Positions 24,601 through 64,000 of a DNA stretch of 64,000 nt are shown here, one piece after another. The notes under the pieces are model-generated. The model was not told the DNA's origin, ran no database searches, and saw only the letters and a list, made by a program, of their open reading frames with translations. Positions within the stretch are counted from its first letter, which is position 1. Every line of letters begins with the position of its first letter. This DNA is from Camelus dromedarius (Eukaryota): positions 2,914,001-2,978,000 of the forward strand of contig NC_087436.1 in assembly GCF_036321535.1 (NCBI RefSeq). Reading direction: 5' to 3'. A program made the translations under genes and the position numbers.

Positions 24601-25087
24601 CCGGGATGATGTTCCTGAATTTTTCACTGTAAAACCGAATTGGAGCTAGTACCTCCCCATATATATGTGTGGAGTGGGGTTTGCAACTGAAAAGAAACTT
24701 TGTGTTCCCAACAAGCTATGTGAAGGACGGCTTTCACACACACTTATCTCTCAGAAGTGAGCATGTGGAGAGACTTTTGTTCATCTAGCACAAATGGAAC
24801 GGGTTGAAGGAGAAACTTTTACTCTGGATTCTCAGTCTGTTTCCTAGTGCCGGTTTGAAGTTCCTGCAGTTTTCACTGTAAAACCGAGTTGGAGCTAGTA
24901 CCTCCCCATATATATGTATGGAGTGGTGTTTGCAAGTGAAAAGAAACTTTGTGTTCCCAACAAGCTAGTTGAAGGCGGCTTTCACACACAATTATCTCTC
25001 AGAATTGAGCATGTGGAGAGACGTTCGTTCATCTAGCACAAAGGGAACGGGTTGCAGGAGAAACTTTTACTCTGGTTTCTCAGTCTG
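21611..25087. repeat. Three I-J-K-L blocks at a 5-monomer (~1242 bp) period with differing fifth monomers
   Basis: Class I (GGTTGGAATTTCCTTC, GGACTGCTTTCTC) starts near 21611, 22853 and 24095. ORF offset 21852->24336 = 2484 = 2 x 1242. Confidence 0.75.
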
Positions 25088-41200: not shown

Positions 41201-44200
41201 AACGGGTTGCAGTAGAAACTATTTCTCTGGTTTCTCAGTCTGTTTCCTAGTGCCGGTTTGAAGTTCCTGCAGTTTTCACTGTAAAACCGAGTTGGAGCTA
41301 GTACCTCCCCATATATACGTATGGAGTGGGGTTGGCAAGTGAAAAGAAACTTTGTGTTCCCAACAAGCTAGGTGAAGGAAGGCTTTCACACACAATTATC
41401 TCTCAGAACTGAGCATGTGGAGAGACGTTCGTTCATCTAGCGCAAAGGGAACGGGTTGCAGGAGAAACTATTACTCTGGTTTCTCAGTCTGTTTCCTAGT
41501 GCTTTTGAAGTTCCTGCAGTTTTCACTCTAAAACAGAGTTGGAGCTAGTACCTCCCCATATATATGTATGGAGTGGTGTTTGCAACTTAATAGAATCTTT
41601 GTGTTCCCTACAAGCTTGGTGTAGGACGGCTTTCACATACACTTATCTCTCAGAACTGAGCATGTGGAGAGACGTTCGTTCATCTAGCACAAACAGAACG
41701 GGTTGCAGGAGAAACTTTTACTCTGGTTTCTCAGTCTGTTTACTAGTGCTGGTTTGAGGTTCCTGAAGTTTTCACTGTAAAACCGAGTTGTAGCTAGTAC
41801 CTCCCCATATATATATATGGAGTGGGGTTTGCAAGTCAAAACAAACTTTGTTTTCCCAACAAGCTAGTTGAAGGACGGCTTTCACACACAATTACCACTC
41901 AGAAATGAGCATGTGGAGAGACGTTCGTTCATCTAGCATAAAGGGAACGGGTTGCAGGAGAAACTTTTTCTCTGGTTTCTCAGTCTTTTTCCTAGTGCCG
42001 GTTTGAAGTTCCTGCAGTTTTCACTGTAAAACCGAGTTGGAGCTAGTACCTCCCCATATATATGTATGGACTGGAGTTTGCAACTGAAAAGAAACTTTGT
42101 GTTCCCAACAAGCTGGGTGAAGGACGGATTTCACACACACTTATCTCTCAGAACTGAGCATGTGGAGAGAATTTCGTTCATCTAGCACAAAGGGAACGGA
42201 TTGCAGGAGAAACTTTTACTCTGGTTTCTCAGTCTGTTTACTAGTGCCGGTTGGAATTTCCTTCAGTTTTCAATGAAAAACAGTGTTGGAGCTAGTACCT
42301 CCCCATATATATGTATGGATTGGTGTTTGCAACTGAAAAGAACTTTGTGTTCCCAACAAGCTTGGTGAAGGACTGCTTTCTCATACACTTATCACTCAGA
42401 AATTAGCATGTGGAGAGACGTTCTTTCATCTTGCATAAAGTGAACGGGTTGCAGGAGAAACTTTTACTCTGGTTTCTCTATCTCTTTCCTAGTGCAGGTT
42501 TGAAGTTCCTGCAGTTTTCACTGTAAAACCGAGTTGGAGCTATTACTTCCCCATATATATGTATGGAGTGGAGTTTGCAATTGAAAAGAAACTTTGTGTT
42601 CCCAAAAGAAACGTGAAGGGCGGCTTTCACACACACGTATCTCTCAGAACTGAGCATGTGGAGAGACGTTCGTTCATCTAGCACAAATGGAACGGGTTGC
42701 AGGAGAAACTTTTTCTCTGGTTTCTCAGTCTGTTTCCTAGTGCCGGGATGATGTTCCTGAATTTTTCACTGTAAAACCGAATTTGAGCTAGTACCTCCCC
42801 ATATATATGTGTGGAGTGGGGTTTGCAACTGAAAAGAAACTTTGTGTTCCCAACAAGCTATGTGAAGGACGGCTTTCACACACACTTATCTCTCAGAAGT
42901 GAGCATGTGGAGAGACTTTCGTTCATCTAGCACAAATGGAACGGGTTGAAGGAGAAACTTTTACTCTGGATTCTCAGTCTGTTTCCTAGTGCCGGTTTGA
43001 AGTTCCTGCAGTTTTCACTGTAAAACCGAGTTGGAGCTAGTACCTCCCCATATATATGTATGGAGTGGTGTTTGCAAGTGAAAAGAAACTTTGTGTTCCC
43101 AACAAGCTAGTTGAAGGCGGCTTTCACACACAATTATCTCTCAGAATTGAGCATGTGGAGAGACGTTCGTTCATCTAGCACAAAGGGAACGGGTTGCAGG
43201 AGAAACTTTTACTCTGGTTTCTCAGTCTGTTTCCTAGTGCCGGGATGAAGTTCCTGAATTTTTCACTGTAAAACCGAATTGGAGCTAGTACCTCCCCATA
43301 TATAGGTATGGAGTGGGGTTTGCAACTGAAAAGAAACTTTGTGTTCCCAACAAGATATGTGAAGGACGGCTTTCACACACACTTATCTCTCAGAACTGAG
43401 CATGTGGAGAGACGTTCGTTCATCTAGCACAAAGGGAACGGGTTGCAGGAGAAACCTTTTCTCTGGTTTCTCAGTCTGTTTCCTAGTGCCGTTTGGAAGT
43501 TCCTTCAGTTTTCAATGAAAAACTGTGTTGGAGCTAGTACCTCCCCATATATATGTATGGATTGGTGTTTGCAACTGAAAAGATACTTTGTGTTCCCAAC
43601 AAGCTTGTTGAAGTACGGCTTTCACATACACTTATCTCTCAGAACTGAGCATGTGGAGAGACGTTCGTTCATCTAGCACAAACGGAACGGGTTGCAGTAG
43701 AAACTATTTCTCTGGTTTCTCAGTCTGTTTCCTAGTGCCGGTTTGAAGTTCCTGCAGTTTTCACTGTAAAACCGAGTTGGAGCTAGTACCTCCCCATATA
43801 TACGTATGGAGTGGGGTTGGCAAGTGAAAAGAAACTTTGTGTTCCCAACAAGCTAGGTGAAGGAAGGCTTTCACACACAATTATCTCTCAGAACTGAGCA
43901 TGTGGAGAGACGTTCGTTCATCTAGCGCAAAGGGAACGGGTTGCAGGAGAAACTATTACTCTGGTTTCTCAGTCTGTTTCCTAGTGCTTTTGAAGTTCCT
44001 GCAGTTTTCACTCTAAAACAGAGTTGGAGCTAGTACCTCCCCATATATATGTATGGAGTGGTGTTTGCAACTTAATAGAAACTTTGTGTTCCCTACAAGC
44101 TTGGTGTAGGACGGCTTTCACATACACTTATCTCTCAGAACTGAGCATGTGGAGAGACGTTCGTTCATCTAGCACAAACAGAACGGGTTGCAGGAGAAAC

Positions 44201-44223
44201 TTTTACTCTGGTTTCTCAGTCTG

Positions 44224-46709
44224 TTTACTAGTGCTGGTTTGAGGTTCCTGAAGTTTTCACTGTAAAACCGAGTTGTAGCTAGTACCTCCCCATATATATA
44301 TATGGAGTGGGGTTTGCAAGTCAAAACAAACTTTGTTTTCCCAACAAGCTAGTTGAAGGACGGCTTTCACACACAATTACCACTCAGAAATGAGCATGTG
44401 GAGAGACGTTCGTTCATCTAGCATAAAGGGAACGGGTTGCAGGAGAAATTTTACACTGGTTTCTCTGTCTGTTTCCTAGTGCCGGTTTGAAATTCCTGCA
44501 GTTTTCACTGTAAAACCGAGTTGGAGCTATTACCTCCCCATATATATGTATGGAGTGGAGTTTGCAATTGAAAAGAAACTTTGTGTTCCCAACAAGAAAC
44601 GTGAATTACGGCTTTCACACACACTTATCTCTCAGAACTGAGCATGTGGAGAGACGTTCGTTCATCTAGCACAAAGGGAACGGGTTGCAGGGGAAACTTT
44701 TACTCTGGTATCTCAGTCTGATTCCTAGTGCCGGGATGAAGTTCCTGAATTTTTCACTGTTAAACCGAATTGGATCTTGTACCTCCCCATATATATGTAT
44801 GAAGTTGGGTTTGCAACTGAAAAGAAACTTTGTGTTCCCAACAAGCTATGTGAAGGACGGCTTTCACACACACTTATCTCTCAGAACTGAGCATGTGGAG
44901 AGACGTTCGTTCATCTAGCACAAAGGGAATGGGTGGCAGGAGAAACTTTTACTCTGGTTTCTCAGTCTGTTTCCTAGTGCAGGTTGGAAGTTCCTTCAAT
45001 TTTCAATGAAAACAGTGTTGGAGCTAGTACCTCCCCATATATATGTATGGATTGGTGTTTGCAACTGAAAAGAAACTTTGTGTTCCCAACAAGCTTGGTG
45101 AAGTTCGGCTTTCACTTACACTTATCTCTCAGAACTGAGCATGTGGAGAGACGTTCGTTCATCTCACACAAACGGAACTGGTTGCAGTAGAAACTTTTAC
45201 TCTGGTTTCTCAGTCTGTTTCCTAGTGCCGGTTTGAAGTTCCTGCAGTTTTCACTTTAAAACCGAGTTGGAGCTAGTACCTCCCCATATATATGTATGGA
45301 GTGGGGTGTGCAAGTGGAAAGAAACTTTGTGTTCCCAACAATCTAGTTGAAGGACGGCTTTCACACACACTACTCTCTCAGAACTGAGCACGTGGAGAGA
45401 CGTTAGTTCATCTAGCACAAATGGAACGGGTTGCAGGAGAAACTTTTACTCTGGTTTCTCAGTCTGTTTACTAGTGCTGGTTTGAGGTTCCTGAAGTTTT
45501 CACTGTAAAACCGAGTTGTAGCTAGTACCTCCCCATATATATATATGGAGTGGGGTTTGCAAGTCAAAAGAAACTTTGTTTTCCCAACAAGCTAGGTGAA
45601 GGACGGCTTTCACACACAATTACCACTCAGAAATGAGCATGTGGAGAGACGTTCGTTCATCTAGCATAAAGGGAACGGGTTGCAGGAGAAATTTTACACT
45701 GGTTTCTCTGTCTGTTTCCTAGTGCCGGTTTGAAATTCCTGCAGTTTTCACTGTAAAACCGAGTTGGAGCTATTACCTCCCCATATATATGTATGGAGTG
45801 GAGTTTGCAATTGAAAAGAAACTTTGTGTTCCCAACAAGAAACGTGAATTACGGCTTTCACACACACTTATCTCTCAGAACTGAGCATGTGGAGAGACGT
45901 TCGTTCATCTAGCACAAAGGGAACGGGTTGCAGGGGAAACTTTTACTCTGGTATCTCAGTCTGATTCCTAGTGCCGGGATGAAGTTCCTGAATTTTTCAC
46001 TGTTAAACCGAATTGGATCTTGTACCTCCCCATATATATGTATGAAGTTGGGTTTGCAACTGAAAAGAAACTTTGTGTTCCCAACAAGCTATGTGAAGGA
46101 CGGCTTTCACACACACTTATCTCTCAGAACTGAGCATGTGGAGAGACGTTCGTTCATCTAGCACAAAGGGAACGGGTGGCAGGAGAAACTTTTACTCTGG
46201 TTTCTCAGTCTGTTTCCTAGTGCAGGTTGGAAGTTCCTTCAATTTTCAATGAAAACAGTGTTGGAGCTAGTACCTCCCCATATATATGTATGGATTGGTG
46301 TTTGCAACTGAAAAGAAACTTTGTGTTCCCAACAAGCTTGGTGAAGTTCGGCTTTCACTTACACTTATCTCTCAGAACTGAGCATGTGGAGAGACGTTCG
46401 TTCATCTCACACAAACGGAACTGGTTGCAGTAGAAACTTTTACTCTGGTTTCTCAGTCTGTTTCCTAGTGCCGGTTTGAAGTTCCTGCAGTTTTCACTTT
46501 AAAACCGAGTTGGAGCTAGTACCTCCCCATATATATGTATGGAGTGGGGTTTGCAAGTGGAAAGAAACTTTGTGTTCCCAACAATCTAGTTGAAGGACGG
46601 CTTTCACACACACTACTCTCTCAGAACTGAGCACGTGGAGAGACGTTCGTTCATCTAGCACAAATGGAACGGGTTGCAGGAGAATCTTTTACTCTGGTTT
46701 CTCAGTCTG
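44224..46709. repeat. 5-mer tandem repeat (1243 bp): N V W E F x2
   Basis: ORF offsets 44685->45928 and 44984->46227 are 1243. Confidence 0.85.
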
Positions 46710-49700
46710 TTTCCTAGTGCCGTTTTGAAGTTCCTGCAGTTTTCACTGTAAAACCGTGTTGGAGCTAGTACCTCCCCATATATATGTATGGAATGGAGTT
46801 AGCAAGTGAAAAGAAACTTTGTGTTCCCAACAAGCTATGTGAATGACGGCTTTCACACACAATTATCTCTCAGAAATGAGCATGTGGTGAGACGTTCGTT
46901 CATCTAGCACAAAGGGAACGGGTTGCAGGAGAATCTTTTACTCTGGTTTCTCAGTCTGTTTCCTAGTGCTGGTTTGATGTTCCTGCAGGTTTCACTGTAA
47001 AACAGAGTTGGAGCTAGTACCCCCCCATATATATGTATGGATTGGAGTTTGCAAGAGAAAAGAATCTTTCTGTTCCCAACAAGCTGGGTGAAGAACGGCT
47101 TTCACACACACTTATCTCTCAGAACTGAGCACGTGGAGAGACGTTCGTTCATCTAGCACAAATGGAACGTGTTGCAAGAGTAACTTTTACTCTGGTTTCT
47201 CAGTCTGTTTCCTAGTGCCGGTTTGAAGTTCCTGCAGTTTTCAAGTTAAAACCGAGTTGGAGCTAGAACCTCCCATATACATGTATGGAGCGGAGTTTGC
47301 AGGTGAAAAGAAACTTTGTGTTCCCAACAAGCTTGGTGAAGGACGGCTTTCACATACAATAATCTCTCAGAAATGAGCATGTGGAGAGACGCCCGTTCAA
47401 CTAGCACAAAGGGAACGGGTTGCAGGAGAAACTTTTACTCTGGTTTCTCAGTCTTTTTCCTAGTGCCGGTTTGAAGTTCCTGCAGTTTTCACTGTAAAAC
47501 CGAGTTGGAGCTAGTACCTCCCCATATATATGTATGGACTGGAGTTTGCAACTGAAAAGAAACTTTGTGTTCCCAACAAGCTGTGTGAAGGACGGATTTC
47601 ACACACACTTATCTCTCAGAACTGAGCATGTGGAGAGAATTTCGTTCATCTAGCACAAAGGGAACGGATTGCAGGAGAAACTTTTACTCTGGTTTCTCAG
47701 TCTGTTTACTAGTGCCGGTTGGAATTTCCTTCAGTTTTCAATGAAAAACAGTGTTGGAGCTAGTACCTCCCCATATATATGTATGGATTGGTGTTTGCAA
47801 CTGAAAAGAACTTTGTGTTCCCAACAAGCTTGGTGAAGGACTGCTTTCTCATACACTTATCACTCAGAAATGAGCATGTGGAGAGACGTTCTTTCATCTT
47901 GCATAAAGTGAACGGGTTGCAGGAGAAACTTTTACTCTGGTTTCTCTGTCTCTTTCCTAGTGCAGGTTTGAAGTTCCTGCAGTTTTCACTGTAAAACCGA
48001 GTTGGAGCTATTACTTCCCCATATATATGTATGGAGTGGAGTTTGCAATTGAAAAGAAACTTTGTGTTCCCAAAAGAAACGTGAAGGACGGCTTTCACAC
48101 ACACGTATCTCTCAGAACTGAGCATGTGGAGAGACGTTCGTTCATCTAGCACAAATGGAACGGGTTGCAGGAGAAACTTTTTCTCTGGTTTCTCAGTCTG
48201 TTTCCTAGTGCAGGTTGGAAGTTCCTTCAATTTTCAATGAAAACAGTGTTGGAGCTAGTACCTCCCCATATATATGTATGGATTGGTGTTTGCAACTGAA
48301 AAGAAACTTTGTGTTCCCAACAAGCTTGGTGAAGTTCGGCTTTCACTTACACTTATCTCTCAGAACTGAGCATGTGGAGAGACGTTCGTTCATCTCACAC
48401 AAACGGAACTGGTTGCAGTAGAAACTTTTACTCTGGTTTCTCAGTCTGTTTCCTAGTGCCGGTTTGAAGTTCCTGAAGTTTTCACTTTAAAACCGAGTTG
48501 GAGCTAGTACCTCCCCATATATATGTATGGAGTGGGGTTTGCAAGTGGAAAGAAACTTTGTGTTCCCAACAATCTAGTTGAAGGACGGCTTTCACACACA
48601 CTACTCTCTCAGAACTGAGCACGTGGAGAGACGTTCGTTCATCTAGCACAAATGGAACGGGTTGCAGGAGAATCTTTTACTCTGGTTTCTTAGTCTGTTT
48701 CCTAGTGCCGTTTTGATGTTCCTGCAGTTTTCACTGTAAAACCGTGTTGGAGCTAGTACCTCCCCATATATATGTATGGAATGGAGTTAGCAAGTGAAAA
48801 GAAACTTTGTGTTCCCAACAAGCTATGTGAATGACGGCTTTCACACACAATTATCTCTCAGAAATGAGCATGTGGTGAGACGTTCGTTCATCTAGCACAA
48901 AGGGAACGGGTTGCAGGAGAATCTTTTACTCTGGTTTCTCAGTCTGTTTCCTAGTGCTGGTTTGATGTTCCTGCAGGTTTCACTGTAAAACAGAGTTGGA
49001 GCTAGTACCCCCCCATATATATGTATGGATTGGAGTTTGCAAGAGAAAAGAATCTTTCTGTTCCCAACAAGCTGGGTGAAGAACGGCTTTCACACACACT
49101 TATCTCTCAGAACTGAGCACGTGGAGAGACGTTCGTTCATCTAGCACAAATGGAACGTGTTGCAAGAGTAACTTTTACTCTGGTTTCTCAGTCTGTTTCC
49201 TAGTGCCGGTTTGAAGTTCCTGCAGTTTTCAAGTTAAAACCGAGTTGGAGCTAGAACCTCCCATATACATGTATGGAGCGGAGTTTGCAGGTGAAAAGAA
49301 ACTTTGTGTTCCCAACAAGCTTGGTGAAGGACGGCTTTCACATACAATAATCTCTCAGAAATGAGCATGTGGAGAGACGCCCGTTCAACTAGCACAAAGG
49401 GAACGGGTTGCAGGAGAAACTTTTACTCTGGTTTCTCAGTCTTTTTCCTAGTGCCGGTTTGAAGTTCCTGCAGTTTTCACTGTAAAACCGAGTTGGAGCT
49501 AGTACCTCCCCATATATATGTATGGACTGGAGTTTGCAACTGAAAAGAAACTTTGTGTTCCCAACAAGCTGTGTGAAGGACGGATTTCACACACACTTAT
49601 CTCTCAGAACTGAGCATGTGGAGAGAATTTCGTTCATCTAGCACAAAGGGAACGGATTGCAGGAGAAACTTTTACTCTGGTTTCTCAGTCTGTTTACTAG

Positions 49701-50188
49701 TGCCGGTTGGAATTTCCTTCAGTTTTCAATGAAAAACAGTGTTGGAGCTAGTACCTCCCCATATATATGTATGGATTGGTGTTTGCAACTGAAAAGAACT
49801 TTGTGTTCCCAACAAGCTTGGTGAAGGACTGCTTTCTCATACACTTATCACTCAGAAATGAGCATGTGGAGAGACGTTCTTTCATCTTGCATAAAGTGAA
49901 CGGGTTGCAGGAGAAACTTTTACTCTGGTTTCTCTGTCTCTTTCCTAGTGCAGGTTTGAAGTTCCTGCAGTTTTCACTGTAAAACCGAGTTGGAGCTATT
50001 ACTTCCCCATATATATGTATGGAGTGGAGTTTGCAATTGAAAAGAAACTTTGTGTTCCCAAAAGAAACGTGAAGGACGGCTTTCACACACACGTATCTCT
50101 CAGAACTGAGCATGTGGAGAGACGTTCGTTCATCTAGCACAAACGGAACGGGTTGCAGTAGAAACTTTTTCTCTGGTTTCTCAGTCTG
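46213..50188. repeat. 8-mer tandem duplication (1988 bp): E F G H' O P I J x2
   Basis: ORF offsets 46227->48215 and 47779->49767 are 1988. Confidence 0.88.
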
Positions 50189-51181
50189 TTTCCTAGTGCC
50201 GGTTTGAAGTTCCTGCAGTTTTCACTGTAAAACGGAGTTGGAGCTAGTACCTCCCCATATATACGTATGGAATGGGGTTTGCAAGTGAAAAGAAACTTTG
50301 TGTTCCCAACAAGCTAGCTGAAGGAAGGCTTTCACACACAATAATCTCTCAGAACTGAGCATGTGGAGAGACGTTCGTTCATCTAGCGAAAAGGGAACGG
50401 GTTGCAGGAGAAACTTTTACTCTGGTTTCTCAGTCTGTTTCCTAGTGCCGTTTGAAGTTCCTGTAGTTTTCACTGTAAAACCGATTTGGAGCTCGTACCT
50501 CCCCATATATATGTATGGAGTGGAGTTTGCAAGTGAAAAGAAACTTTGTGTTCCCAACAAGCTAGTTGAAGGCGGCTTTCACACACAATTATCTCTCAAA
50601 ACTGAGCACGTGGAGAGACGTTCATTCATCTAGCACAAATGGAACGGGTTGAAGGAGAAACTTTTACTCTGGATTCTCAGTCTGTTTCCTATTGCCGGTT
50701 TGAAGTTCCTGCAGTTTTCACTGTAAAATCGAGTTGGAGCTAGTACCTCCCCATATATATGTATGGAGTGGAGTTTGAAAGTGAAAAGAAAATTTGTGTT
50801 CCCAACAAGCTAGTTGAAGGCTGCTTTCACACACAATTATCTCTCAGAACTGAGCATGTGGAGAGACGTTCGTTCATCTAGCACAAAGGGAACGGGTTGC
50901 AGGAGAAACCTTTTCTCTGGTTTCTCAGTCTGTTTCCTAGTGCCGTTTGGAAGTTCCTTCAGTTTTCAATGAAAATCTGTGTTGGAGCTAGTACCTCCCC
51001 ATATATATGTATGGATTGGTGTTTGCAACTGAAAAGATACTTTGTGTTCCCAACAAGCTTGTTGAAGTACGGCTTTCACATACACTTATCTCTCAGAACT
51101 GAGCATGTGGAGAGACGTTCGTTCATCTAGCACAAACGGAACGGGTTGCAGTAGAAACTATTTCTCTGGTTTCTCAGTCTG

Positions 51182-54100
51182 TTTCCTAGTGCCGGTTTGA
51201 AGTTCCTGCAGTTTTCACTGTAAAACCGAGTTGGAGCTAGTACCTCCCCATATATACGTATGGAGTGGGGTTGGCAAGTGAAAAGAAACTTTGTGTTCCC
51301 AACAAGCTAGGTGAAGGAAGGCTTTCACACACAATTATCTCTCAGAACTGAGCATGTGGAGAGACGTTCGTTCATCTAGCGCAAAGGGAACGGGTTGCAG
51401 GAGAAACTATTACTCTGGTTTCTCAGTCTGTTTCCTAGTGCTTTTGAAGTTCCTGCAGTTTTCACTCTAAAACAGAGTTTGAGCTAGTACCTCCCCATAT
51501 ATATGTATGGAGTGGTGTTTGCAACTTAATAGAAACTTTGTGTTCCCAACAAGCTTGGTGTAGGACGGCTTTCACATACACTTATCTCTCAGAACTGAGC
51601 ATGTGGAGAGACGTTCGTTCATCTAGCACAAACAGAACGGGTTGCAGGAGAAACTTTTACTCTGGTTTCTCAGTCTGTTTACTAGTGCTGGTTTGAGGTT
51701 CCTGAAGTTTTCACTGTAAAACCGAGTTGTAGCTAGTACCTCCCCATATATATATATGGAGTGGGGTTTGCAAGTCAAAAGAAACTTTGTTTTCCCAACA
51801 AGCTAGGTGAAGGACGGCTTTCACACACAATTACCACTCAGAAATGAGCATGTGGAGAGGCGTTCGTTCATCTAGCATAAAGGGAACGGGTGGCAGGAGA
51901 AATTTTACACTGGTTTCTCTGTCTGTTTCCTAGTGCCGGTTTGAAATTCCTGCAGTTTTCACTGTAAAACCGAGTTGGAGCTATTACCTCCCCATATATA
52001 TGTATGGAGTGGAGTTTGCAATTGAAAAGAAACTTTGTGTTCCCAACAAGAAACGTGAATTACGGCTTTCACACACACTTATCTCTCAGAACTGAGCATG
52101 TGGAGAGACGTTCGTTCATCTAGCACAAAGGGAACGGGTTGCAGGGGAAACTTTTACTCTGGTATCTCAGTCTGACTCCTAGTGCCGGGATGAAGTTCCT
52201 GAATTTTTCACTGTTAAACCGAATTGGAGCTTGTACCTCCCCATATATATGTATGAAGTGGGGTTTGCAACTGAAAAGAAACTTTGTGTTCCCAACAAGC
52301 TATGTGAAGGACGGCTTTCACACACACTTATCTCTCAGAACTGAGCATGTGGAGAGACGTTCGTTCATCTAGCACAAAGGGAACGGGTGGCAGGAGAAAC
52401 TTTTACTCTGGTTTCTCAGTCTGTTTCCTAGTGCAGGTTGGAAGTTCCTTCAATTTTCAATGAAAACAGTGTTGGAGCTAGTACCTCCCCATATATATGT
52501 ATGGATTGGTGTTTGCAACTGAAAAGAAACTTTGTGTTCCCAACAAGCTTGGTGAAGTTCGGCTTTCACACACACTTATCTCTCAGAACTGAGCATGTGG
52601 AGAGACGTTCGTTCATCTAGCACAAACGGAACTGGTTGCAGTAGAAACTTTTACTCTGGTTTCTCAGTCTGTTTCCTAGTGCCGGTTTGAAGTTCCTGCA
52701 GTTTTCACTTTAAAACCGAGTTGGAGCTAGTACCTCCCCATATATATGTATGGAGTGGGGTTTGCAAGTGGAAAGAAACTTTGTGTTCCCAACAATCTAG
52801 TTGAAGGACGGTTTTCACACACAATACTCTCTCAGAACTGAGCACGTGGAGAGACGTTCATTCATCTAGCACAAATGGAACGGGTTGCAGGAGAATCTTT
52901 TACTCTGGTTTCTCAGTCTGTTTCCTAGTGCCGTTTTGAAGTTCCTTCTGTTTTCACTGTAAAACCGTGTTGGAGCTAGTACCTCCCCATATATATGTAT
53001 GGAATGGAGTTAGCAAGTGAAAAGAAACTTCGTGTTCCCAACAAGCTATGTGAATGACGGCTTTCACACACAATTATCTCTCAGAAATGAGCATGTGGTG
53101 AGACGTTCGTTCATCTAGCACAAAGGGAACGGGTTGCAGGAGAATCTTTTACTCTGGTTTCTCAGTCTGTTTCCTAGTGCTGGTTTGATGTTCCTGCAGG
53201 TTTCACTGTAAAACAGAGTTGGAGCTAGTACCCCCCCATATATATGTATGGATTGGAGTTTGCAAGAGAAAAGAATCTTTCTGTTCCCAACAAGCTGGGT
53301 GAAGAACGGCTTTCACACACACTTATCTCTCAGAACTGAGCACGTGGAGAGACGTTCGTTCATCTAGCACAAATGGAACGTGTTGCAAGAGTAACTTTTA
53401 CTCTGGTTTCTCAGTCTGTTTCCTAGTGCCGGTTTGAAGTTCCTGCAGTTTTCACTGTAAAACCGAGTTGGAGCTAGTACCTCCCCATATATACGTATGG
53501 AGTGGGGTTGGCAAGTGAAAAGAAACTTTGTGTTCCCAACAAGCTAGGTGAAGGAAGGCTTTCACACACAATTATCTCTCAGAACTGAGCATGTGGAGAG
53601 ACGTTCGTTCATCTAGCGCAAAGGGAACGGGTTGCAGGAGAAACTATTACTCTGGTTTCTCAGTCTGTTTCCTAGTGCTTTTGAAGTTCCTGCAGTTTTC
53701 ACTCTAAAACAGAGTTGGAGCTAGTACCTCCCCATATATATGTATGGAGTGGTGTTTGCAACTTAATAGAAACTTTGTGTTCCCAACAAGCTTGGTGTAG
53801 GACGGCTTTCACATACACTTATCTCTCAGAACTGAGCATGTGGAGAGACGTTCGTTCATCTAGCACAAACAGAACGGGTTGCAGGAGAAACTTTTACTCT
53901 GGTTTCTCAGTCTGTTTACTAGTGCTGGTTTGAGGTTCCTGAAGTTTTCACTGTAAAACCGAGTTGTAGCTAGTACCTCCCCATATATATATATGGAGTG
54001 GGGTTTGCAAGTCAAAAGAAACTTTGTTTTCCCAACAAGCTAGGTGAAGGACGGCTTTCACACACAATTACCACTCAGAAATGAGCATGTGGAGAGGCGT

Positions 54101-55655
54101 TCGTTCATCTAGCATAAAGGGAACGGGTGGCAGGAGAAATTTTACACTGGTTTCTCTGTCTGTTTCCTAGTGCCGGTTTGAAATTCCTGCAGTTTTCACT
54201 GTAAAACCGAGTTGGAGCTATTACCTCCCCATATATATGTATGGAGTGGAGTTTGCAATTGAAAAGAAACTTTGTGTTCCCAACAAGAAACGTGAATTAC
54301 GGCTTTCACACACACTTATCTCTCAGAACTGAGCATGTGGAGAGACGTTCGTTCATCTAGCACAAAGGGAACGGGTTGCAGGGGAAACTTTTACTCTGGT
54401 ATCTCAGTCTGACTCCTAGTGCCGGGATGAAGTTCCTGAATTTTTCACTGTTAAACCGAATTGGAGCTTGTACCTCCCCATATATATGTATGAAGTGGGG
54501 TTTGCAACTGAAAAGAAACTTTGTGTTCCCAACAAGCTATGTGAAGGACGGCTTTCACACACACTTATCTCTCAGAACTGAGCATGTGGAGAGACGTTCG
54601 TTCATCTAGCACAAAGGGAACGGGTGGCAGGAGAAACTTTTACTCTGGTTTCTCAGTCTGTTTCCTAGTGCAGGTTGGAAGTTCCTTCAATTTTCAATGA
54701 AAACAGTGTTGGAGCTAGTACCTCCCCATATATATGTATGGATTGGTGTTTGCAACTGAAAAGAAACTTTGTGTTCCCAACAAGCTTGGTGAAGTTCGGC
54801 TTTCACACACACTTATCTCTCAGAACTGAGCATGTGGAGAGACGTTCGTTCATCTAGCACAAACGGAACTGGTTGCAGTAGAAACTTTTACTCTGGTTTC
54901 TCAGTCTGTTTCCTAGTGCCGGTTTGAAGTTCCTGCAGTTTTCACTTTAAAACCGAGTTGGAGCTAGTACCTCCCCATATATATGTATGGAGTGGGGTTT
55001 GCAAGTGGAAAGAAACTTTGTGTTCCCAACAATCTAGTTGAAGGACGGTTTTCACACACAATACTCTCTCAGAACTGAGCACGTGGAGAGACGTTCATTC
55101 ATCTAGCACAAATGGAACGGGTTGCAGGAGAATCTTTTACTCTGGTTTCTCAGTCTGTTTCCTAGTGCCGTTTTGAAGTTCCTTCTGTTTTCACTGTAAA
55201 ACCGTGTTGGAGCTAGTACCTCCCCATATATATGTATGGAATGGAGTTAGCAAGTGAAAAGAAACTTCGTGTTCCCAACAAGCTATGTGAATGACGGCTT
55301 TCACACACAATTATCTCTCAGAAATGAGCATGTGGTGAGACGTTCGTTCATCTAGCACAAAGGGAACGGGTTGCAGGAGAATCTTTTACTCTGGTTTCTC
55401 AGTCTGTTTCCTAGTGCTGGTTTGATGTTCCTGCAGGTTTCACTGTAAAACAGAGTTGGAGCTAGTACCCCCCCATATATATGTATGGATTGGAGTTTGC
55501 AAGAGAAAAGAATCTTTCTGTTCCCAACAAGCTGGGTGAAGAACGGCTTTCACACACACTTATCTCTCAGAACTGAGCACGTGGAGAGACGTTCGTTCAT
55601 CTAGCACAAATGGAACGTGTTGCAAGAGTAACTTTTACTCTGGTTTCTCAGTCTG
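51182..55655. repeat. 9-mer tandem duplication (2237 bp): T U N V W E F G H' x2
   Basis: ORF offsets 52139->54376 and 52438->54675 are 2237. Both copies share private variants GAGAGGCG, CTGACTCC, CGGTTTTCAC and AAACTTCGTG. Confidence 0.9.
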
Positions 55656-57395
55656 TTTCCTAGTGCCGGTTTGAAGTTCCTGCAGTTTTCAAGTTAAAAC
55701 CGAGTTGGAGCTAGAACCTCCCATATACATGTATGGAGCGGAGTTTGCAGGTGAAAAGAAACTTTGTGTTCCCAACAAGCTTGGTGAAGGACGGCTTTCA
55801 CATACAATAATCTCTCAGAAATGAGCATGTGGAGAGACGCCCGTTCAACTAGCACAAAGGGAACGGTTTGAAGGAGAAACTTTTACTCTGGTTTCTCAGT
55901 CTTTTTCCTAGTGCCGGTTTGAAGTTCCTGCAGTTTTCACTGTAAAACCGAGTTGGAGCTAGTACCTCCCCATATATATGTATGGACTGGAGTTTGCAAC
56001 TGAAAAGAAACTTTGTGTTCCCAACAAGCTGTGTGAAGGACGGATTTCACACACACTTATCTCTCAGAACTGAGCATGTGGAGAGAATTTCGTTCATCTA
56101 GCACAAAGGGAACGGATTGCAGGAGAATCTATTACTCTGGTTTCTCAGTCTGTTTACTAGTGCCGGTTGGAATTTCCTTCAGTTTTCAATGAAAAACAGT
56201 GTTGGAGCTAGTACCTCCCCATATATATGTATGGATTGGTGTTTGCAACTGAAAAGAACTTTGTGTTCCCAACAAGCTTGGTGAAGGACTGCTTTCTCAT
56301 ACACTTATCACTCAGAAATGAGCATGTGGAGAGACGTTCTTTCATCTTGCATAAAGTGAACGGGTTGCAGGAGAAACTTTTACTCTGGTTTCTCTGTCTC
56401 TTTCCTAGTGCAGGTTTGAAGTTCCTGCAGTTTTCACTGTAAAACCGAGTTGGAGCTATTACTTCCCCATATATATGTATGGAGTGGAGTTTGCAATTGA
56501 AAAGAAACTTTGTGTTCCCAAAAGAAAAGTGAAGGACGGCTTTCACACACACGTATCTCTCAGAACTGAGCATGTGGAGAGACGTTCGTTCATCTAGCAC
56601 AAATGGAACGGGTTGCAGGAGAAACTTTTTCTCTGGTTTCTCAGTCTGTTTCCTAGTGCCGGGATGATGTTCCTGAATTTTTCACTGTAAAACCGAATTG
56701 GAGCTAGTACCTCCCCATATATATGTGTGGAGTGGGGTTTGCAACTGAAAAGAAACTTTGTGTTCCCAACAAGCTATGTGAAGGACGGCTTTCACACACA
56801 CTTATCTCTCAGAAGTGAGCATGTGGAGAGACTTTCGTTCATCTAGCACAAATGGAACGGATTGCAGGAGAAACCTTTACTCTGGTTTCTTAGTCTTTTT
56901 CCTAGTGCCGTTTGGAAGTTCCTTCAGTTTTCAATGAAAAACTGTGTTGGAGCTAGTACCTCCCCATATATATGTATGGATTGGTGTTTTCAACTGAAAA
57001 GATACTTTGTGTTCCCAACAAGCTTGGTGAAGTACGGCTTTCACATACACATATCTCTCAGAACTGAGCATGTGGAAAGACGTACGTTCATCTAGCACAA
57101 ACGGAACGGGTTGCAGTAGAAACTTTTTCTCTGGTTTCTCAGTCTGTTTCCTAGTGGCGGTTTGAAGTTCCTGCAGTTTTCACTGTAAAACCGAGTTGGA
57201 GCTAGTACCTCCCCATATATACGTATGGAGTGGTGTTTGCAAGTGAAAAGAAACTTTGTGTTCCCAACAAGCTATGTGAAGGAAGGCTTTCACACACAAT
57301 TATCCCTCAGAACTGAGCATGTGGAGAGAGTTTCGTTCATCTAGCGCAAAGGGAACGGGTTGCAGGAGAAACTTTTACTCTGGTTTCTCAGTCTG

Positions 57396-59877
57396 TTTCC
57401 TAGTGCCGTTTGAATTTCCTGCAGTTTTCACTGTAAAACCGATTTGGAACTATTACCTCCCCATATATATGTATGGAGTGGAGTTTGCAAGTGAAAAGAA
57501 ACTTTGTGTTCCCAACAAGCTTGTTGAAGTTGGCTTTCACACACAATTATCTCTCAGAACTGAGCATGTGGAGAGACGTTCATTCAATTAGCACAAATGG
57601 AACGGGTTGCAGGAGAAAACTTTACTCTGGTTTCTCAGTCTGTTTCGTAGTGCCGTTTGGAAGTTCGTTCAGTTTTCAATGAAAAACTGTGTTGGGGCTA
57701 CAACCTCCCCATATATATGTATGGATTGGTGTTTGCAACTGAAAAGATACTTTGTGTTCCCAACAAGCTTGTTGAAGGACGGCTTTCACATACACTTATC
57801 TCTCAGAACTGAGCATGTGGAGAGACGTTCGTTCATCTAGCACAAACGGAACGGGTTGCAGTAGAAACTTTTTCTCTGGTTTCTCAGTCTGTTTCCTAGT
57901 GCCGGTTTGAAGTTCCTGCAGTTTTCACTGTAAAACCGAGTTGGAGCTAGTACCACCCCATATATACGTATGGAGTGGGTTTTGCAAGTTAAAAGAAACT
58001 TTGTGTTCCCAACAAGCTAGGTGAAGGAAGGATTTCACACACAATTATCTCTCAGAACTGAGCAGGTGGAGAGACGTTCGTTCATCTAGCGCAAAGAGAA
58101 CGGGTTGCAGGAGAAACTTTTACTCTGGTTTCTCAGTCTGTTTCCTAGTGCCGTTTGAAGTTCCTGCAGTTTTCACTGTAAAACCGATTTGGAGCTAGTA
58201 CTTCCCCATATATATGTAAGGAGTGGAGTTTGCAATTGAAAAGAAACTTTGTGTTCCCAGCAAGCTAGTTGAAGGCGGCTTTCACACACAATTATCTCTC
58301 AGAACTGAGCACGTGGAGAGACGTTCATTCATCTAGCACAAATGTAACGGGTTGAAGGAGAAACTTTTACTCTGGATTCTCAGTCTGTTTCCTAGTGCCG
58401 GTTTGAAGTTACTGCAATTTTCACTGTAAAATCGAGTTGGAGCTAGTACCTCCCCATATATATGTATGGATTGGTGTTTGCAACTGAAAGAATACTTTGT
58501 GTTCCCAACAAGCTTTGTGAAGGACGGCTTTCACATACACTTATCTCTCAGAACTGAGCATGTGGAGAGACGTTCGTTCATCTAGCACAAACGGAACGGT
58601 TTGCAGTAGAAACTTTTTCTCTGGTTTCTCAGTCTGCTTCCTAGTGCCGTTTGAAGTTCCTGCATTTTTCACTGTAAAACCGATTTGGAGCTAGTACCTC
58701 CCCATATATATGTATGGAGTGGAGTTTGCAATTGAAAAGAAACTTTGTGTTCCCAAAACAAACGTGAAGGACGGCTTTCACACACACTTATCTCTCAGAA
58801 CTGAGCATGTGGAGAGACGTTCGTTCATCCAGCACAAAGGGAACGGGTTGCAGGAGAAACTTTTACTCTGGATTCTCAGTCTGTTTCCTAGTGCCGGGAT
58901 GAAGTTCCTGAATTTTTCACTGTAAAACTGAATTGGAGCTAGTACCTCCCCATATATATGTGTGGAGTGGGGTTTGCAACTGAAAAGAAACTTTGTGTTC
59001 CCAACAAGCTATGTGAAGGACGGCTTTCACACACACTTATCTCTCAGAAGTGAGCATGTGGAGAGACGTTCGTTCATCTAGCACAAATGGAACGGATTGC
59101 AGGAGAAACCTTTACTCTGGTTTCTCAGTCTGTTTCCTAGTGCCGTTTGGAAGTTCCTTCAGTTTTCAATGAAAAACTGTGTTGGAGCTAGTACCTCCCC
59201 ATATATATGTATGGATTGGTGTTTGCAACTGAAAAGATACTTTGTGTTCCCAACAAGCTTGGTGAAGAACGGCTTTCACATACACTTATCTCTCAGAACT
59301 GAGCATGTGGAGAGACGTTCATTCATCTAGCACAAATGGAACGGGTTGAAGGAGAAACTTTTACTCTGGATTCTCAGTCTGTTTCCTAGTGCCGGTTTAA
59401 AGTTCCTGCATTTTTCACTGTAAAACCGAGTTGGAGCTAGTACCTCCCCATATATATGTATGGAGTGGAGTTTGCAAGTGAAAAGAAACTTTGTGTTCCC
59501 AACAAGCTAGTTGAAGGCGGCTTTCACACACAATTATCTCTCAGAACTGAGCATGTGGAGAGACGTTCGTTCATCTAGCACAAAGGGAACGGGTGTCAGG
59601 AGAAACTTTTACTCTGGTTTCTAAGTCTGTTTCCTAGTGCCGGTTTGAATTCCTGAAGTTTTCACTGTAAAACCGAATTGGAGCTAGTACCTCCCCATAT
59701 ATATGTATGGAGTGGGTTTTGCAACTGAAAAGAAACTTTGTGTTCCCAACAAGCTATGTGAAGGACGGCTTTCACAAACACTTATCTCTCAGAACTGAGC
59801 ATGTGGAGAGACGTTCGTTCATCCAGCACAAAGGGAACTGGTTGCAGGAGAAACTATTACTCTGGTTTCTCAGTAAG
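57396..59877. repeat. Diverged transition zone of core-like monomers
   Basis: Class motifs are still recognisable, but there are many private changes (GCTACAACC, TACCACCCC, GAGCAGGTGG, AAGTTACTGC, GGGTGTCAGG) and I saw no exact partner copy. Confidence 0.7.
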
Positions 59878-62800
59878 TTTCCAGTTGCCGCTTTGAAGTT
59901 CCTGCAGTTTTCACTGTAAAACCGAGTTGGAGCTAGTACATCCCCATAAATATGTATGGAGTGGAGTTTGCTACTGTAAAGAATCTTTGTGTTCCCAACA
60001 AGCTAGGTGAAGGACGGCTTTCACACACACTTATCTCTCAGAACTGAGCATGTGGAGAGACGTTCGTTCATCTTGCAAAAATGGAACTGTTTGCAGGAGA
60101 AATTTTACTCTGGTTTCTCAGTCTGTTTCCTAGAACCGGTTTGATGTTCCTGCAGTTTTCACTGTAAAACCGAGTTGGAGCTAGTACCTCCCCATATATA
60201 TGTATGGAGTAGAGTTTGCAAATGAAAAGAAACTTTGTGTTCCCAAGAAGCTTTGCGAAAGACGGCTTTCACACACACTTATCTCTCAGAGCTGAGCATG
60301 TGGAGAGACGTTCGTTCATCTAGCACTAAGGAAACGGTTTGCAGGAGAAACTTTTACTCTGGGTTCTCATTCTGTTTCCTAGTGCCAGTTTGAAGTTCCT
60401 GCAGTTTTCACTGTAAATACGAGTTGGAGCTTGTACATTCCCATATATAAGTATGGAGTGGAGTTTGCAACTGAAAAGAAACTTTGTGTTCCCTACAAGC
60501 TAGGTGAAGGAAGGCATTCACACACAGTTAACTCTCAGAATTGAGCATGTGGGGAGACGCTCGTTCATCCAGCACAAAGGAAACGGGTTGCACGGGAAAC
60601 TTTTACTCTGGTTTCTCAGTCTGTTTCCTAGTGCCCGTTTGAAGTTCCTGTAGTTATCACTGTAAAACCGAGTTGGAGATAGTACCTCCCATATATATAT
60701 TTATGGAGTGGAGTTTGAAAGTGAAGAGAAACTTTGTGTTCCCAAGAAGCTAGGTGAAGGACGGCTTTCACACACCCATTTATCTTAGAACTGAGCATGT
60801 GGAGAGACGTTCGTTCATCTAGCACAAAGGGAACTGGTTGCAGGAGAAACTATTACTCTGGTTTCTCAGTATGTTTCCTGTTGCCGCTTTGAAGTTCCTG
60901 CAGTTTTCACTGTAAAACCGAGTTGGAGCTAGTACATCCCCATAAATATGTATGGAGTGGAGTTTGCAACTGTAAAGAAACTTTGTGTTCCCAACAAGCT
61001 AGGTGAAGGACGGCTTTCACACACACTTATCTCTGAGAAATGAGCATGTGGAGAGACGTTCTTTCATCTAGCACAAAGGGAACGGGTTGCAGGAGAAACT
61101 TTTACTCGGGTTTCTCAGTCTGTTTCCTAGTGCCGGTTTGAAGTTCCTGCAGTTTTCACTGTAAAACCGTGTTGGAGCTAGTACCTCCCCATATATATGT
61201 ATGGAGTGGAGTTTGCAATTGAAGAGAAACTTTGTGTTCCCAACAAGCTAGGTGAAGGACGGCTTTCACACACACTTATCTCTCAGAACTGAGCATGTGG
61301 AGAGACGTTCGTTCATCTTGCAAAAAGGGAACTGTTTGCAGGAGAAATTTTACTCTGGTTTCTCAGTCTGTTTCCTAGAACCGGTTTGATGTTCCTGCAG
61401 TTTTCAGTGTAAAACCGAGTTGGAGCTAGTACCTCCCCATATATATGTATGGAGTAGAGTTTGCCAATGAAAAGAAACTTTGTGTTCCCAAGAAGCTTTG
61501 CGAAAGACGGCTTTCACACACACTTATCTCTCAGACTGAGCATGTGGAGAGACATTCATTCATCTAGCACAAAGAGAACGGGTTGCAGGAGAAACTTTTA
61601 CTCTGGTTTCTCAGTCTATTTCCTAGTGCCGGTTTGAAGTTCCTGCAGGTTTCACTGTAAAACCGAGTTGGAGCTAGTACCTCCCCATATATATGTATGG
61701 AGTGGAGTTTGCAACTGAAAAGAAACTTTGTGTTCCCAACAAGCTAGTTGAAGGACGGCTTTCACACAAAATTATCTCTCAGAACTGAGCATGTGGAGAG
61801 ACGTTCGTTCATCTAGCACTAAGGAAACGGTTTGCAGGAGAAACTTTTACTCTGGGTTCTCATTCTGTTTCCTAGTGCCAGTTTGAAGTTCCTGCAGTTT
61901 TCACTGTAAATACGAGTTGGAGCTTGTACATTCCCATATATAAGTATGGATTGGAGTTTGCAACTGAAAAGAAACTTTGTGTTCCATACAAGCTAGGTGA
62001 AGGAAGGCATTCACACACAGTTAACTCTCAGAATTGAGCATGTGGAGAGACGTTCGTTCATCTAGCACAAAGGAAACTTGTTGCAGTGGAAACTTTATTT
62101 GTGGTTTCTCAGTCTGTTTCTTTGTACCGGTTTGAAGTTCCTTAATTTTCACTGTAAAACCGAGTTGGAGCTAGTACATCCCCATATATATGTATGGAGT
62201 GGAGTTTGCAAATGAAAAGAAACCTTGTGTTCCCAAGAATCTTTGTGAAAGACGGCTTTCACACACACTTATCTCTCAGAACTGAGCATGTGGAGAGACG
62301 TTCATTCATCTAGCACAAAGAGAACGGGGTGCAGGAGAAACTTTTACTCTGGTTTCTCAGTCTATTTCCTAGTGCCGGTTTGAAGTTCCTGCAGGTTTCA
62401 CTGTAAAACCGAGTTGGAGCTAGTACCACCCCATATATATGTATGGAGTGGAGTTTGCAACTGAAAAGAAGCTTTGTGTTCCAAACAAGCTAGGTGAAGG
62501 ACGGCTTTCAAACACACTTATCTCTCAGAACTGAGCATGTGGAGAGACATTCGTTCATCTTGCACAAAGGGAACAGTTTGCAGGAGAAACTTTTACTCTG
62601 GTTTCTCAGTCTGTTTCCTACTACCGGTTTGTTGTTCCTGCAGTTTTCACTGTAAAACCGAGTTGGAATTAGTATCTCCCCATATATATGTATGGAGTGG
62701 AGTTTGCAAATGAAAAGAAACTTTGTGTTCCCAAGAAGCTATGTGAAAGTCGGCTTTCACACACACTTATCTCTCAGAACTGAGCATGTGGAGAGACTTT

Positions 62801-64000
62801 CATTCATCTATCACAAAGAGAGCGGGTTGCAGGAGAAACTTTTACTCTGGTTTCTCAGTCTATTTCCTAGTGCCGGTTGGAAGTTCCCGCAGTTTTCACT
62901 GTAAAACCGAGTTGGAGCTAGTACCTCCCCATATATAAGTTTGGAGTGGAGTTTGCAACTGAAAAGAAACTTTGTGTTCCCAACAAGCTAGTTGAAGGAC
63001 GGCATTCACACAAAATTATCTCTCAGAACTGAGCATGTGGAGAGACGTTCGTTCATCTTGCAAAAAGGGAACTGTTTGCAGGAGAAATTTTACTCTGGTT
63101 TCTCAGTCTGTTTCCTAGAACCGGTTTGATTTTCCTGCAGTTTTCACTGTAAAACCGAGTTGGAGCTAGTACCTCCCCATATATATGTATGGAGTAGAGT
63201 ATGCCAATGAAAAGAATCTTTGTGTTCCCAAGAAGCTTTGCGAAAGACGGCTTTCACACACACTTATCTCTCAGAACTGAGCATGTGGAGAGACATTCAT
63301 TCATCTAGCACAAAGAGAACGTGTTGCAGGAGAAACTTTTACTCTGGTTTCTCAGTCTATTTCCTAGTGCCGGTTTGAAGTTCCTGCAGGTTTCACTGTA
63401 AAACCGAGTTGGAGCTAGTACCTCCCCATATATATGTATGGATTGGAGTTTGCAACTGAAAAGAAACTTTGTGTTCCCAACAAGCTAGTTGAAGGACGGC
63501 TTTCACACAAAATTATCTCTCAGAACTGAGCATGTGGAGAGACGTTCGTTCATCTAGCACTAAGGAAACGGTTTGCAGGAGAAACTTTTACTCTGGGTTC
63601 TCATTCTGTTTCCTAGTGCCAGTTTGAAGTTCCTGCAGTTTTTACTGTAAATACGAGTTGGAGCTTGTACATTCCCATATATAAGTATGGATTGGGGTTT
63701 GCAACTGAAAAGAAACTTTGTGTTCCATACAAGCTAGGTGAAGGAAGGCATTCACACACAGTTAACTCTCAGAATTGAGCATGTGGAGAGACGTTCGTTC
63801 ATCTAGCACAAAGGAAACTTGTTGCAGTGGAAACTTTATTTGTGGTTTCTCAGTCTGTTTCTTTGTACCGGTTTGAAGTTCCTTAATTTTCACTGTAAAA
63901 CCGAGTTGGATCTAGTACATCCCCATATATATGTATGGAGTGGAGTTTGCAAATGAAAAGAAACCTTGTGTTCCCAAGAATCTTTGTGAAAGACGGCTTT
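59878..64000. repeat. Distinct satellite subfamily with a 7-mer (1740 bp) higher-order period
   Basis: New motifs absent from the core: CCTAGAACCGG, CTTTGCGAAAG, GCCAGTTTG/AAATACGAG, GTTAACTC, CTTTGTACCGG. 61371-62260 recurs at 63111-64000 (offset 1740-1741). Confidence 0.85.

What the first reader, a model, noticed from the sequence alone, without database searches (positions are those of the whole stretch)
50189..57642. An ancestral ~24-mer HOR can be reconstructed and explains the shorter periods
Seen: removing one copy of the 9-mer duplication leaves the non-redundant order B C D A3 T U N V W E F G H' O P I J K A4 Q R. Also seen: 2729-4468 reads K A Q R S M A1, followed by B C D, which closes the circle. 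Inference: a ~24-monomer (~6 kb) parent HOR existed that is not present intact in the window. The 5- to 16-mer units are sub-paths of it produced by in-register deletion and duplication. HORs with variant units are established for primate alpha satellite. Finding this in a 249-bp satellite I cannot assign to a known family is the most notable aspect of the window.
Basis: partly seen in the sequence, partly recalled or inferred. Interest (0 to 1): 0.7.

Follow-up and report, generated by a model that had tools for sequence, protein, structure and literature searches.

The report
Fragmented 24-unit camelid satellite higher-order repeat
This stretch of camel-family centromere-type repeat DNA is built from broken and re-copied pieces of one 24-unit, 6-kb pattern that no longer occurs whole here, the same way human centromere repeats evolve, so it is a known process seen in a little-studied repeat.

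Summary
The window is one 249-bp satellite (257 monomers) with about 25 discrete classes. It explains 218 core monomers with 49 in-register jumps (24 distinct; 17 clean single crossovers) and 0.7% residual mismatch. It predicts 184 held-out monomers at 1%. No intact 24-mer occurs; the longest run is 17.4 monomers.

Two corrections. (1) The family is known: about 94% identical by eye to the llama 248-bp candidate centromeric repeat of Melters 2013, where HOR was 'not found'. It makes up 5-8% of reads in two runs. (2) The parent is older than the young array. The circle closes only by joining two K-A-Q-R copies 3% apart, as far apart as the 24-mer's own internal triplicated 5-mer, while core copies differ by 0.9%. 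A 21-mer explains the core almost as well.

This works like alpha-satellite HORs with structural variants, and HORs are widespread. My searches found no paper describing camelid HORs, and the scan has not noted this on other DNA. New member of a known kind.

The parts
1..64000 (.). Uninterrupted tandem array of a 249-bp satellite, 257 full monomers in one orientation, mean pairwise divergence 9.5%
746..59877 (.). Domain that follows the 24-slot cycle (m4-m241), about 59 kb, with both edges apparently inside the window
3227..57395 (.). Young core (m14-m231): 218 monomers, 1.65 mismatches per monomer to the cycle, 49 in-register jumps
50189..57642 (.). The finding: m203-m232, the most complete sample of the cycle (21 of 24 slots after removing one duplicate 9-mer)
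51182..55655 (.). Youngest tandem duplication: 9 monomers T..H', period 2237 bp, 1 difference
56649..57642 (.). Right-hand K2 A4 Q2 R/M lineage; K2 A4 Q2 recurs only at m151-153 (37265-38011)
2729..4468 (.). Closing segment K3 A Q R S M A1 (m12-m18); its K, A, Q, R differ by about 3% from the right-hand lineage
746..3226 (.). Older left flank (m4-m13): follows the cycle at 5.0 mismatches per monomer, better than 100 of 100 random orders
57396..59877 (.). Older right flank (m232-m241): R/M A1 B C D/A1 B/J K A4/R S M, 8.4 mismatches per monomer, better than 100 of 100 random orders
33691..38011 (.). Longest uninterrupted run on the cycle, 17.4 monomers (D 3' part to Q2)
9684..9932 (.). Example of hybrid K1 = K 5' + R 3' (skips 3 slots); 12 copies in the window
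5213..5460 (.). Example of hybrid L = A3 5' + W 3' (skips 5 slots); 4 copies, 6 private fixed changes
6207..6455 (.). Example of hybrid H = H' 5' + P 3' (skips 2 slots); 4 copies
29811..35276 (.). Adjacent tandem duplication of 11 monomers, period 2733 bp, 3 differences
44224..46709 (.). Adjacent tandem duplication of 5 monomers, period 1243 bp, 6 differences
46213..50188 (.). Adjacent tandem duplication of 8 monomers, period 1988 bp, 5 differences
59878..64000 (.). Different, older layer of the same satellite (m242-m257); does not follow the cycle

Best explanation
A local domain (about 59 kb) of the major camelid 248/249-bp (peri)centromeric satellite. An old 24-monomer unit (5963 bp) arose from a roughly 15-monomer unit by internal duplication of a K-A-Q-R-S 5-mer (inferred) and was itself duplicated in tandem at about the same time. 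Two diverged copies of its J-K-A-Q-R-S-M-A1-B-C part still flank the domain (shown). Later, misaligned but monomer-in-register recombination between neighbouring units (unequal exchange or replication-fork template switching; not distinguishable here) produced deletions of 2-7 slots and duplications of 4-12 slots. Each event left one crossover, often a hybrid monomer (shown). Blocks carrying such junctions were then copied again (10 junction types recur, shown), so today's 5- to 16-monomer periods are sub-paths of the cycle and no intact 24-mer remains. The K/R hybrid, which closes a 21-slot circle, is the most widespread junction and was probably the first step of the young expansion (inferred). 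No sequence-specific function is implied. It is most likely ordinary satellite turnover in or beside a centromere, and CENP-A binding is untested.
For: Mosaic Viterbi cost 531.5 vs 1120-1209.5 for 12 of 12 random orders. All 24 edges are crossed without a nearby jump at least 3 times. 17 of 24 distinct junctions are clean single crossovers. Polarity from paralogues: K1's 3' part is 0 from R and C and 4-6 from K2 and M, while K2's 3' part is 2 from its paralogue M, so K1 is the derived form; L and M/D behave likewise. Two different H'-to-P breakpoints (columns 142-175 and 46-64) land on the same parents. Both flanks follow the cycle better than 100 of 100 random orders and are more diverged than the core. 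Family match.
Against: No intact 24-mer, and only 0.5% of core monomers have a near-identical partner 24 positions ahead, so tandem repetition of the full unit is inferred, not seen. Closure needs Q with Q2 and K3 with K2 merged across 7-8 differences, the same range as the paralogue pairs K/M, A4/A1 and Q/B (6-10). The window's monomer m13 is closer to A1 (4) than to A4 (6). A 21-mer (542.0) and a 28-slot reference with the two K-A-Q-R copies kept apart (509.5) fit the core about as well as the 24-cycle (531.5); these costs carry no penalty for slot number. Six of 24 junctions are compound and one (S to D) is poorly resolved. One haplotype of one assembly; no long reads were laid.
Confidence: 0.65

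Rival explanations
1. There never was a tandem array of 24-mers. The ancestor was one linear stretch of about 28-34 diverged monomers whose two ends happened to be paralogous (an old duplication of J..C). The first truly amplified unit was the 21-mer closed by the K/R hybrid, or even shorter units.
For: 0 Hamiltonian cycles if the two K-A-Q lineages are kept apart. The 21-mer and 28-slot references fit the core as well. K2 3' part and A4 have only 2 copies in the core, against 11-19 for I, J, P, S.
Against: The shared stretch at the two ends is about 10 slots long and sits one 24-slot period apart, with slot-specific shared variants, which is what a partial 24-mer dimer is. No intact 21-mer occurs either.
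Confidence: 0.2
2. An intact canonical 24-mer array exists elsewhere (further along this chromosome, or in other individuals or species) and this window is a variant-rich outlier of it, as on human chr10. This is compatible with the best explanation but changes its meaning.
For: 19 runs of 8 studies and 3 organism labels hold 0.70-0.79 of the stretch's sampled 31-letter words, while only 18% of its 31-mers match the family consensus exactly. In humans the share of variant HORs varies by chromosome and individual.
Against: Both edges of the domain appear to lie in the window, bordered by other layers. Several alleles at 16-29% in reads are absent from the window, so this subfamily is not dominant. 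Word sharing is weak evidence in a family that makes up 5-8% of reads, since 71% of the 31-mers carry two or fewer changes.
Confidence: 0.1
3. A shorter unit (11-, 15- or 16-mer) is the parent and the extra classes are later insertions.
For: The 16-mer and 11-mer give the most visible periods. The paralogous slots collapse to a 15-mer, which is probably the still older ancestor.
Against: Costs 1348 (16-mer), 1799.5 (11-mer), 1083.5 (15-mer) vs 531.5. The 16-mer contains three hybrids (L, H, K1) whose parents lie outside it. Dropping any one slot raises the cost by 28-452.
Confidence: 0.02
4. The jumbled order is an assembly artefact of a regular array.
For: 14 of 24 junction types occur once; no long reads were checked; the order of large near-identical blocks could be mis-joined.
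Against: Junctions join slots that share at most 52-119 identical bases in register, too short for a long-read overlap mis-join (inference; the assembly method is not known to me). 10 junction types recur, and the 7 hybrid lineages tested each carry 1-7 fixed differences from their parents' references.
Confidence: 0.03

Closest known systems
Lama glama 248-bp candidate centromeric tandem repeat (Melters et al. 2013, PMC4053949, supplementary files 1 and 3)
   Same: Same monomer: 14 differences in 249 positions by eye against the window consensus (about 94%). Listed there at 45% GC and 2.9% of the genome; here 43% GC and 5-8% of reads in two runs.
   Different: Melters lists HOR structure as 'not found' (Sanger reads rarely show HORs of three or more monomers). 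The candidate status there is computational. The window is a diverged, probably Old World camel, form (inference).
Human alpha-satellite HORs with structural variants and hybrid monomers (HORmon 'Centromere Evolution Postulate', 10.1101/2021.10.12.464028; Altemose et al., 10.1101/2021.07.12.452052)
   Same: One cyclic order of non-hybrid monomers, partial HORs as substrings, hybrids as chords, one Hamiltonian cycle after removing hybrids (as cen5 and cen8), an older pentamer inside the unit (as cenX), and a young core with older flanks.
   Different: Unrelated 249-bp monomer; slots only 9.5% apart (alpha: 65-88% similar); no CENP-B box; no complete canonical unit, against 98.6% of cenX monomers in complete HORs; 59 kb rather than megabases.
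Cascading HORs (PMC11050224)
   Same: Monomer types repeat within the unit when types are cut at 5% divergence: K/M, A4/A1/A3, Q/B/T, R/C and S/D are 2-4% apart.
   Different: Cascading HORs were described as tandem arrays with many canonical copies (65% of 429); here there is none.
Heterogeneous HORs of Arabidopsis type (DToL centromere atlas, 10.64898/2026.09.17.752431)
   Same: Many local block duplications of varied length and no long-range period.
   Different: Here every block still maps onto one recoverable cyclic parent order, so the array lies between the regimented and heterogeneous types.

Membership tests
Camelid 248/249-bp major satellite (Melters 2013 llama repeat) | Monomer sequence and length match | tested here: met
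   248 vs 249 bp; 14 differences by eye, not by alignment program
Camelid 248/249-bp major satellite (Melters 2013 llama repeat) | High genomic abundance in tandem | tested here: met
   7.6% and 5.2% of reads in X21 and X22, with head-to-tail joints; 0.19% and 0.63% in X20 and X24, where 88-92% of laid reads run on unlike sequence
Camelid 248/249-bp major satellite (Melters 2013 llama repeat) | Centromeric location or CENP-A binding | not testable with these tools
   No genome held, no ChIP data; position near one end of the chromosome is only suggested by unchecked notes
HOR array under the Centromere Evolution Postulate (HORmon) | Discrete frequent monomer classes, within-class identity far above between-class identity | tested here: met
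   0.9% within slot (690 pairs) vs 9.5% between slots
HOR array under the Centromere Evolution Postulate (HORmon) | Single Hamiltonian cycle of non-hybrid monomers | tested here: inconclusive
   1 cycle if Q/Q2 and K3/K2 are merged, 0 if not
HOR array under the Centromere Evolution Postulate (HORmon) | Off-cycle frequent monomers are hybrids of cycle members | tested here: met
   K1 residual 1, H 1, L 5, against 7-9 to the nearest single class; X 4 using J + K1 but 7 from cycle classes alone; 17 of 24 junctions clean
Willard-type regimented HOR array | Canonical unit repeated in tandem as the common unit | tested here: not met
   No intact 24-mer; longest run 17.4 monomers; 0.5% of core monomers match at offset 24
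Willard-type regimented HOR array | All monomers in the unit are of different types (over 5% apart) | tested here: not met
   Paralogue pairs 5-10 differences apart
Alpha satellite | 171-bp monomer and CENP-B box | tested here: not met
   249-bp period; 0 matches to the 9-base CENP-B core (motif recalled) on either strand, also with 1 mismatch
VpaSat01-16 alpaca satellites (PMC13751797) | 1.8-8.5 kb motifs, non-centromeric candidates | tested here: inconclusive
   Only the first 400 letters of each consensus are visible; none resembles the monomer by eye

The most novel reading that the evidence does not exclude
A 'ghost' HOR: a non-primate mammalian array caught in the passage from regimented to heterogeneous organisation, where the canonical 24-mer is extinct yet fully recoverable, with about one junction per 4.4 monomers. 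If camelid centromeres (a family worth 5-8% of the genome, with a conserved karyotype) are generally built of such chromosome-specific cycles, they would give an independent, datable test of the unproven Centromere Evolution Postulate. The transversion-rich substitution spectrum (Ts/Tv about 0.4) may point to a distinct mutational process in this satellite.
Probability: 0.3. Interest if true: 0.55.

Novelty: new member of a known kind. Interest (0 to 1): 0.35.

Why it matters
Camelid centromeric satellite organisation appears undescribed at sequence level in the library searched: a November 2026 alpaca paper says no comprehensive camelid satellite study existed and itself focused on non-centromeric satellites. 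This window shows that the main camelid candidate centromeric repeat forms long HORs that evolve by the rules worked out for human alpha satellite. The HORmon authors note that the single-ancestral-HOR postulate has no rigorous proof; this small array is a clean case in which each event can be ordered. It changes no general model, since HORs are known to be widespread.

Tried and rejected
Whole-genome scan for intact 24-mers: not possible, no genome is held. Shorter parents (11-, 15-, 16-mer) and a single consensus: rejected on cost. CENP-B box: none. Word sharing in 19 runs was considered as evidence that the classes exist in other animals and judged weak, because 71% of the stretch's 31-mers carry two or fewer changes from consensus and the family is very large. 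Reads laid on one monomer were meant to show class-private allele shares across the family, but only the top 40 rows were shown (393 not shown), so equal versus unequal class abundance could not be tested; 35 of the 40 rows were compared with the window, the 5 left out being reversions of m112's own variants to consensus. X20 and X24 gave 10- to 40-fold lower abundance and mostly partial reads, so they were set aside for abundance. The D reference was built from only 2 copies and inflates the residual for D. Paper searches for a description of camelid HORs or of this monomer found none beyond Melters 2013. The CENP-B preprint's single 'camel' hit was an author name, the equid T2T paper's passages shown gave nothing on camels, the DToL atlas main text has no 'camel', and the 8000-centromere preprint has no 'transversion'. 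Earlier scan notes hold nothing on this satellite.

Full report
What is there. The whole window is one tandem array with a 249-bp period, split into 257 full monomers of 247-250 bp with mean pairwise divergence 9.5%. Monomers fall into discrete classes: 23-25 clusters of three or more members at average-linkage cut-offs of 4-8 differences, 20 at cut-off 10. 98% of the 218 core monomers have a partner within 3 differences, against none in 5 column shuffles, and the commonest successor explains 182 of 211 labelled adjacencies, against 23% in 200 shuffles.

Test of the 24-slot cycle. I built a reference for each of the 24 slots and aligned the window to the circle, allowing jumps only between equal columns of different slots. 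The core m14-m231 (218 monomers) needs 49 jumps and leaves 1.65 mismatches per monomer; the cost is 531.5 against 1120-1209.5 for 12 random orders. Every one of the 24 edges is crossed without a nearby jump at least 3 times in m1-m241. No intact 24-mer (5963 bp) occurs; the longest runs are 17.4 and 16.9 monomers.

Junctions. The 49 jumps are 24 distinct junctions, 10 recurrent and 14 single. 17 of 24 are clean crossovers with at most 2 contrary sites on either side, 6 belong to three compound events with two jumps close together, and 1 (S to D) is poorly resolved. Two of the compound jumps are the same K/R junction as the commonest one, giving it 12 copies. About six fall at or next to the arbitrary monomer boundary, so they make no visible hybrid monomer. 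Polarity can be read from paralogues: K1 is K2 in its 5' part (1 difference) and R or C in its 3' part (0), whereas K2's 3' part matches its paralogue M (2), so K1 is derived; L (A3/W), H (H'/P) and M/D are likewise hybrids. Four adjacent tandem duplications of 11, 5, 8 and 9 monomers carry 3, 6, 5 and 1 differences. Shorter parents fail: 16-mer 1348, 15-mer 1083.5, 11-mer 1799.5.

First, the circle closes across two lineages. K2 A4 Q2 R at 56649-57642 differ from K3 A Q R at 2729-3722 by 5 (first 190 columns), 6, 7-8 and 9 (first 200 columns) positions, about 3%, while copies of one slot in the core differ by 0.9%. Without merging them there is no Hamiltonian cycle. A 21-slot circle closed by the K/R hybrid costs 542.0 and a 28-slot reference with both lineages 509.5, against 531.5, with no penalty for slot number. 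Second, the 24-mer is composite: K/M, A4/A1/A3, Q/B/T, R/C and S/D are 5-10 differences apart, and D looks like an old S/M hybrid. So the 24-mer came from a roughly 15-slot unit by duplication of a 5-mer, at about the time its two surviving lineages split (inference). Third, both flanks (m4-m13, m232-m241) follow the cycle better than 100 of 100 random orders but at 5.0 and 8.4 mismatches per monomer, while the tail m242-m257 does not follow it (18.4 mismatches; no better than any of 100 random orders). This is a small layered expansion: young centre, older copies of the same unit outside, other layers beyond. At a generic mammalian rate of about 2-2.5 x 10^-9 per site per year (recalled), 0.9% and 3% would be about 2 and 6-7 million years; order of magnitude only.

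Identity of the family. Earlier scan notes call the genome camelid (unchecked AI notes, used as a lead). The supplement of Melters et al. 2013 (PMC4053949; I saw section 11, passages, and supplement hits) lists for Lama glama a 248-nt, 45% GC candidate centromeric repeat, 2.9% of the genome, HOR 'not found'. By eye it differs from the window consensus at 14 of 249 positions. Reads laid on one monomer give 976,636 of 12,867,149 (7.6%) and 664,468 of 12,885,987 (5.2%) in X21 and X22, and 0.19% and 0.63% in X20 and X24, where most laid reads fit only partly. Several alleles at 16-29% in X21 reads are absent from m1-m241, so this domain is a minor subfamily. 19 runs of 8 studies and 3 organism labels hold 0.70-0.79 of the stretch's words; one may be the source, and I treat this as weak. 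No CENP-B box was found. The consensus has one MspI and one PstI site, which may link it to the old restriction-defined camelid satellites (names recalled; papers not read).

Mechanism. Shown: in-register crossovers, recurrent junction lineages, adjacent block duplications, an age gradient. Inferred: misaligned recombination or template switching between neighbouring units, the order 15-mer to 24-mer to K/R 21-mer to shorter variants, and a (peri)centromeric position. An assembly artefact is unlikely for the junctions because different slots share at most 52-119 identical bases in register and the 7 hybrid lineages tested carry fixed differences of their own, but block order was not checked with long reads.

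Comparison with what is known. The HORmon preprint (passages and section 13 read) states the same model for human centromeres: one ancestral cycle, partial HORs, hybrid monomers, an older pentamer inside the cenX 12-mer, and no rigorous proof. Altemose et al. (passages) describe variant HORs, hybrids and layered expansion. Cascading HORs (PMC11050224, passages) repeat monomer types within a unit, as here. HORs are widespread: 76 of 171 species with Sanger data and prevalent, regimented or heterogeneous, in the DToL atlas (passages). The alpaca satellite paper (PMC13751797; parts 1-4 of 8 and the xlsx supplement read, consensus cells cut at 400 letters, pptx figures unseen) covers 1.8-8.5 kb non-centromeric motifs and says no comprehensive camelid study existed. 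Nine searches found no description of camelid HORs. Most subscription papers, bioRxiv supplements, Dfam, Repbase and nt were out of reach, so absence from print is not proven.

Verdict. New member of a known kind; interest 0.35.

Noticed in passing
window 1-64000: Substitutions are transversion-rich: Ts/Tv 0.41 for 155 unique slot-vs-consensus changes (G:C to T:A 45, T:A to A:T 38) and 0.42 for 111 young within-slot changes; the read table lists more places with these kinds too. Mammalian neutral DNA is usually near 2 (recalled).
   Followed up: partly
window 3227-57395: 46 of 111 young within-slot changes match a base fixed in another slot, against a 21% background: short gene conversion between slots, or mutation hotspots.
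   Followed up: partly
window 59878-64000: A different, older monomer layer with its own young 7-monomer (about 1741 bp) duplication: m249/m256 differ by 1, m250/m257 by 2, m248/m255 by 6.
   Followed up: partly
window 27575-27823 (reads laid): Family abundance differs between two samples of one study (7.6% vs 5.2% of reads), hinting at large individual copy-number variation; two PCR libraries of another study hold 10- to 40-fold less.
   Followed up: no
window 50189-57642: Older relationships among slots: E and I share 9-11 variants with the A types, W shares 7 with K and M, V shares 5 with J, so V-W-E is an old copy of J-K-A.
   Followed up: partly
window 1-745: m1-m3 do not fit any slot well (6-15 mismatches even with jumps) and may mark the left edge of the domain.
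   Followed up: no
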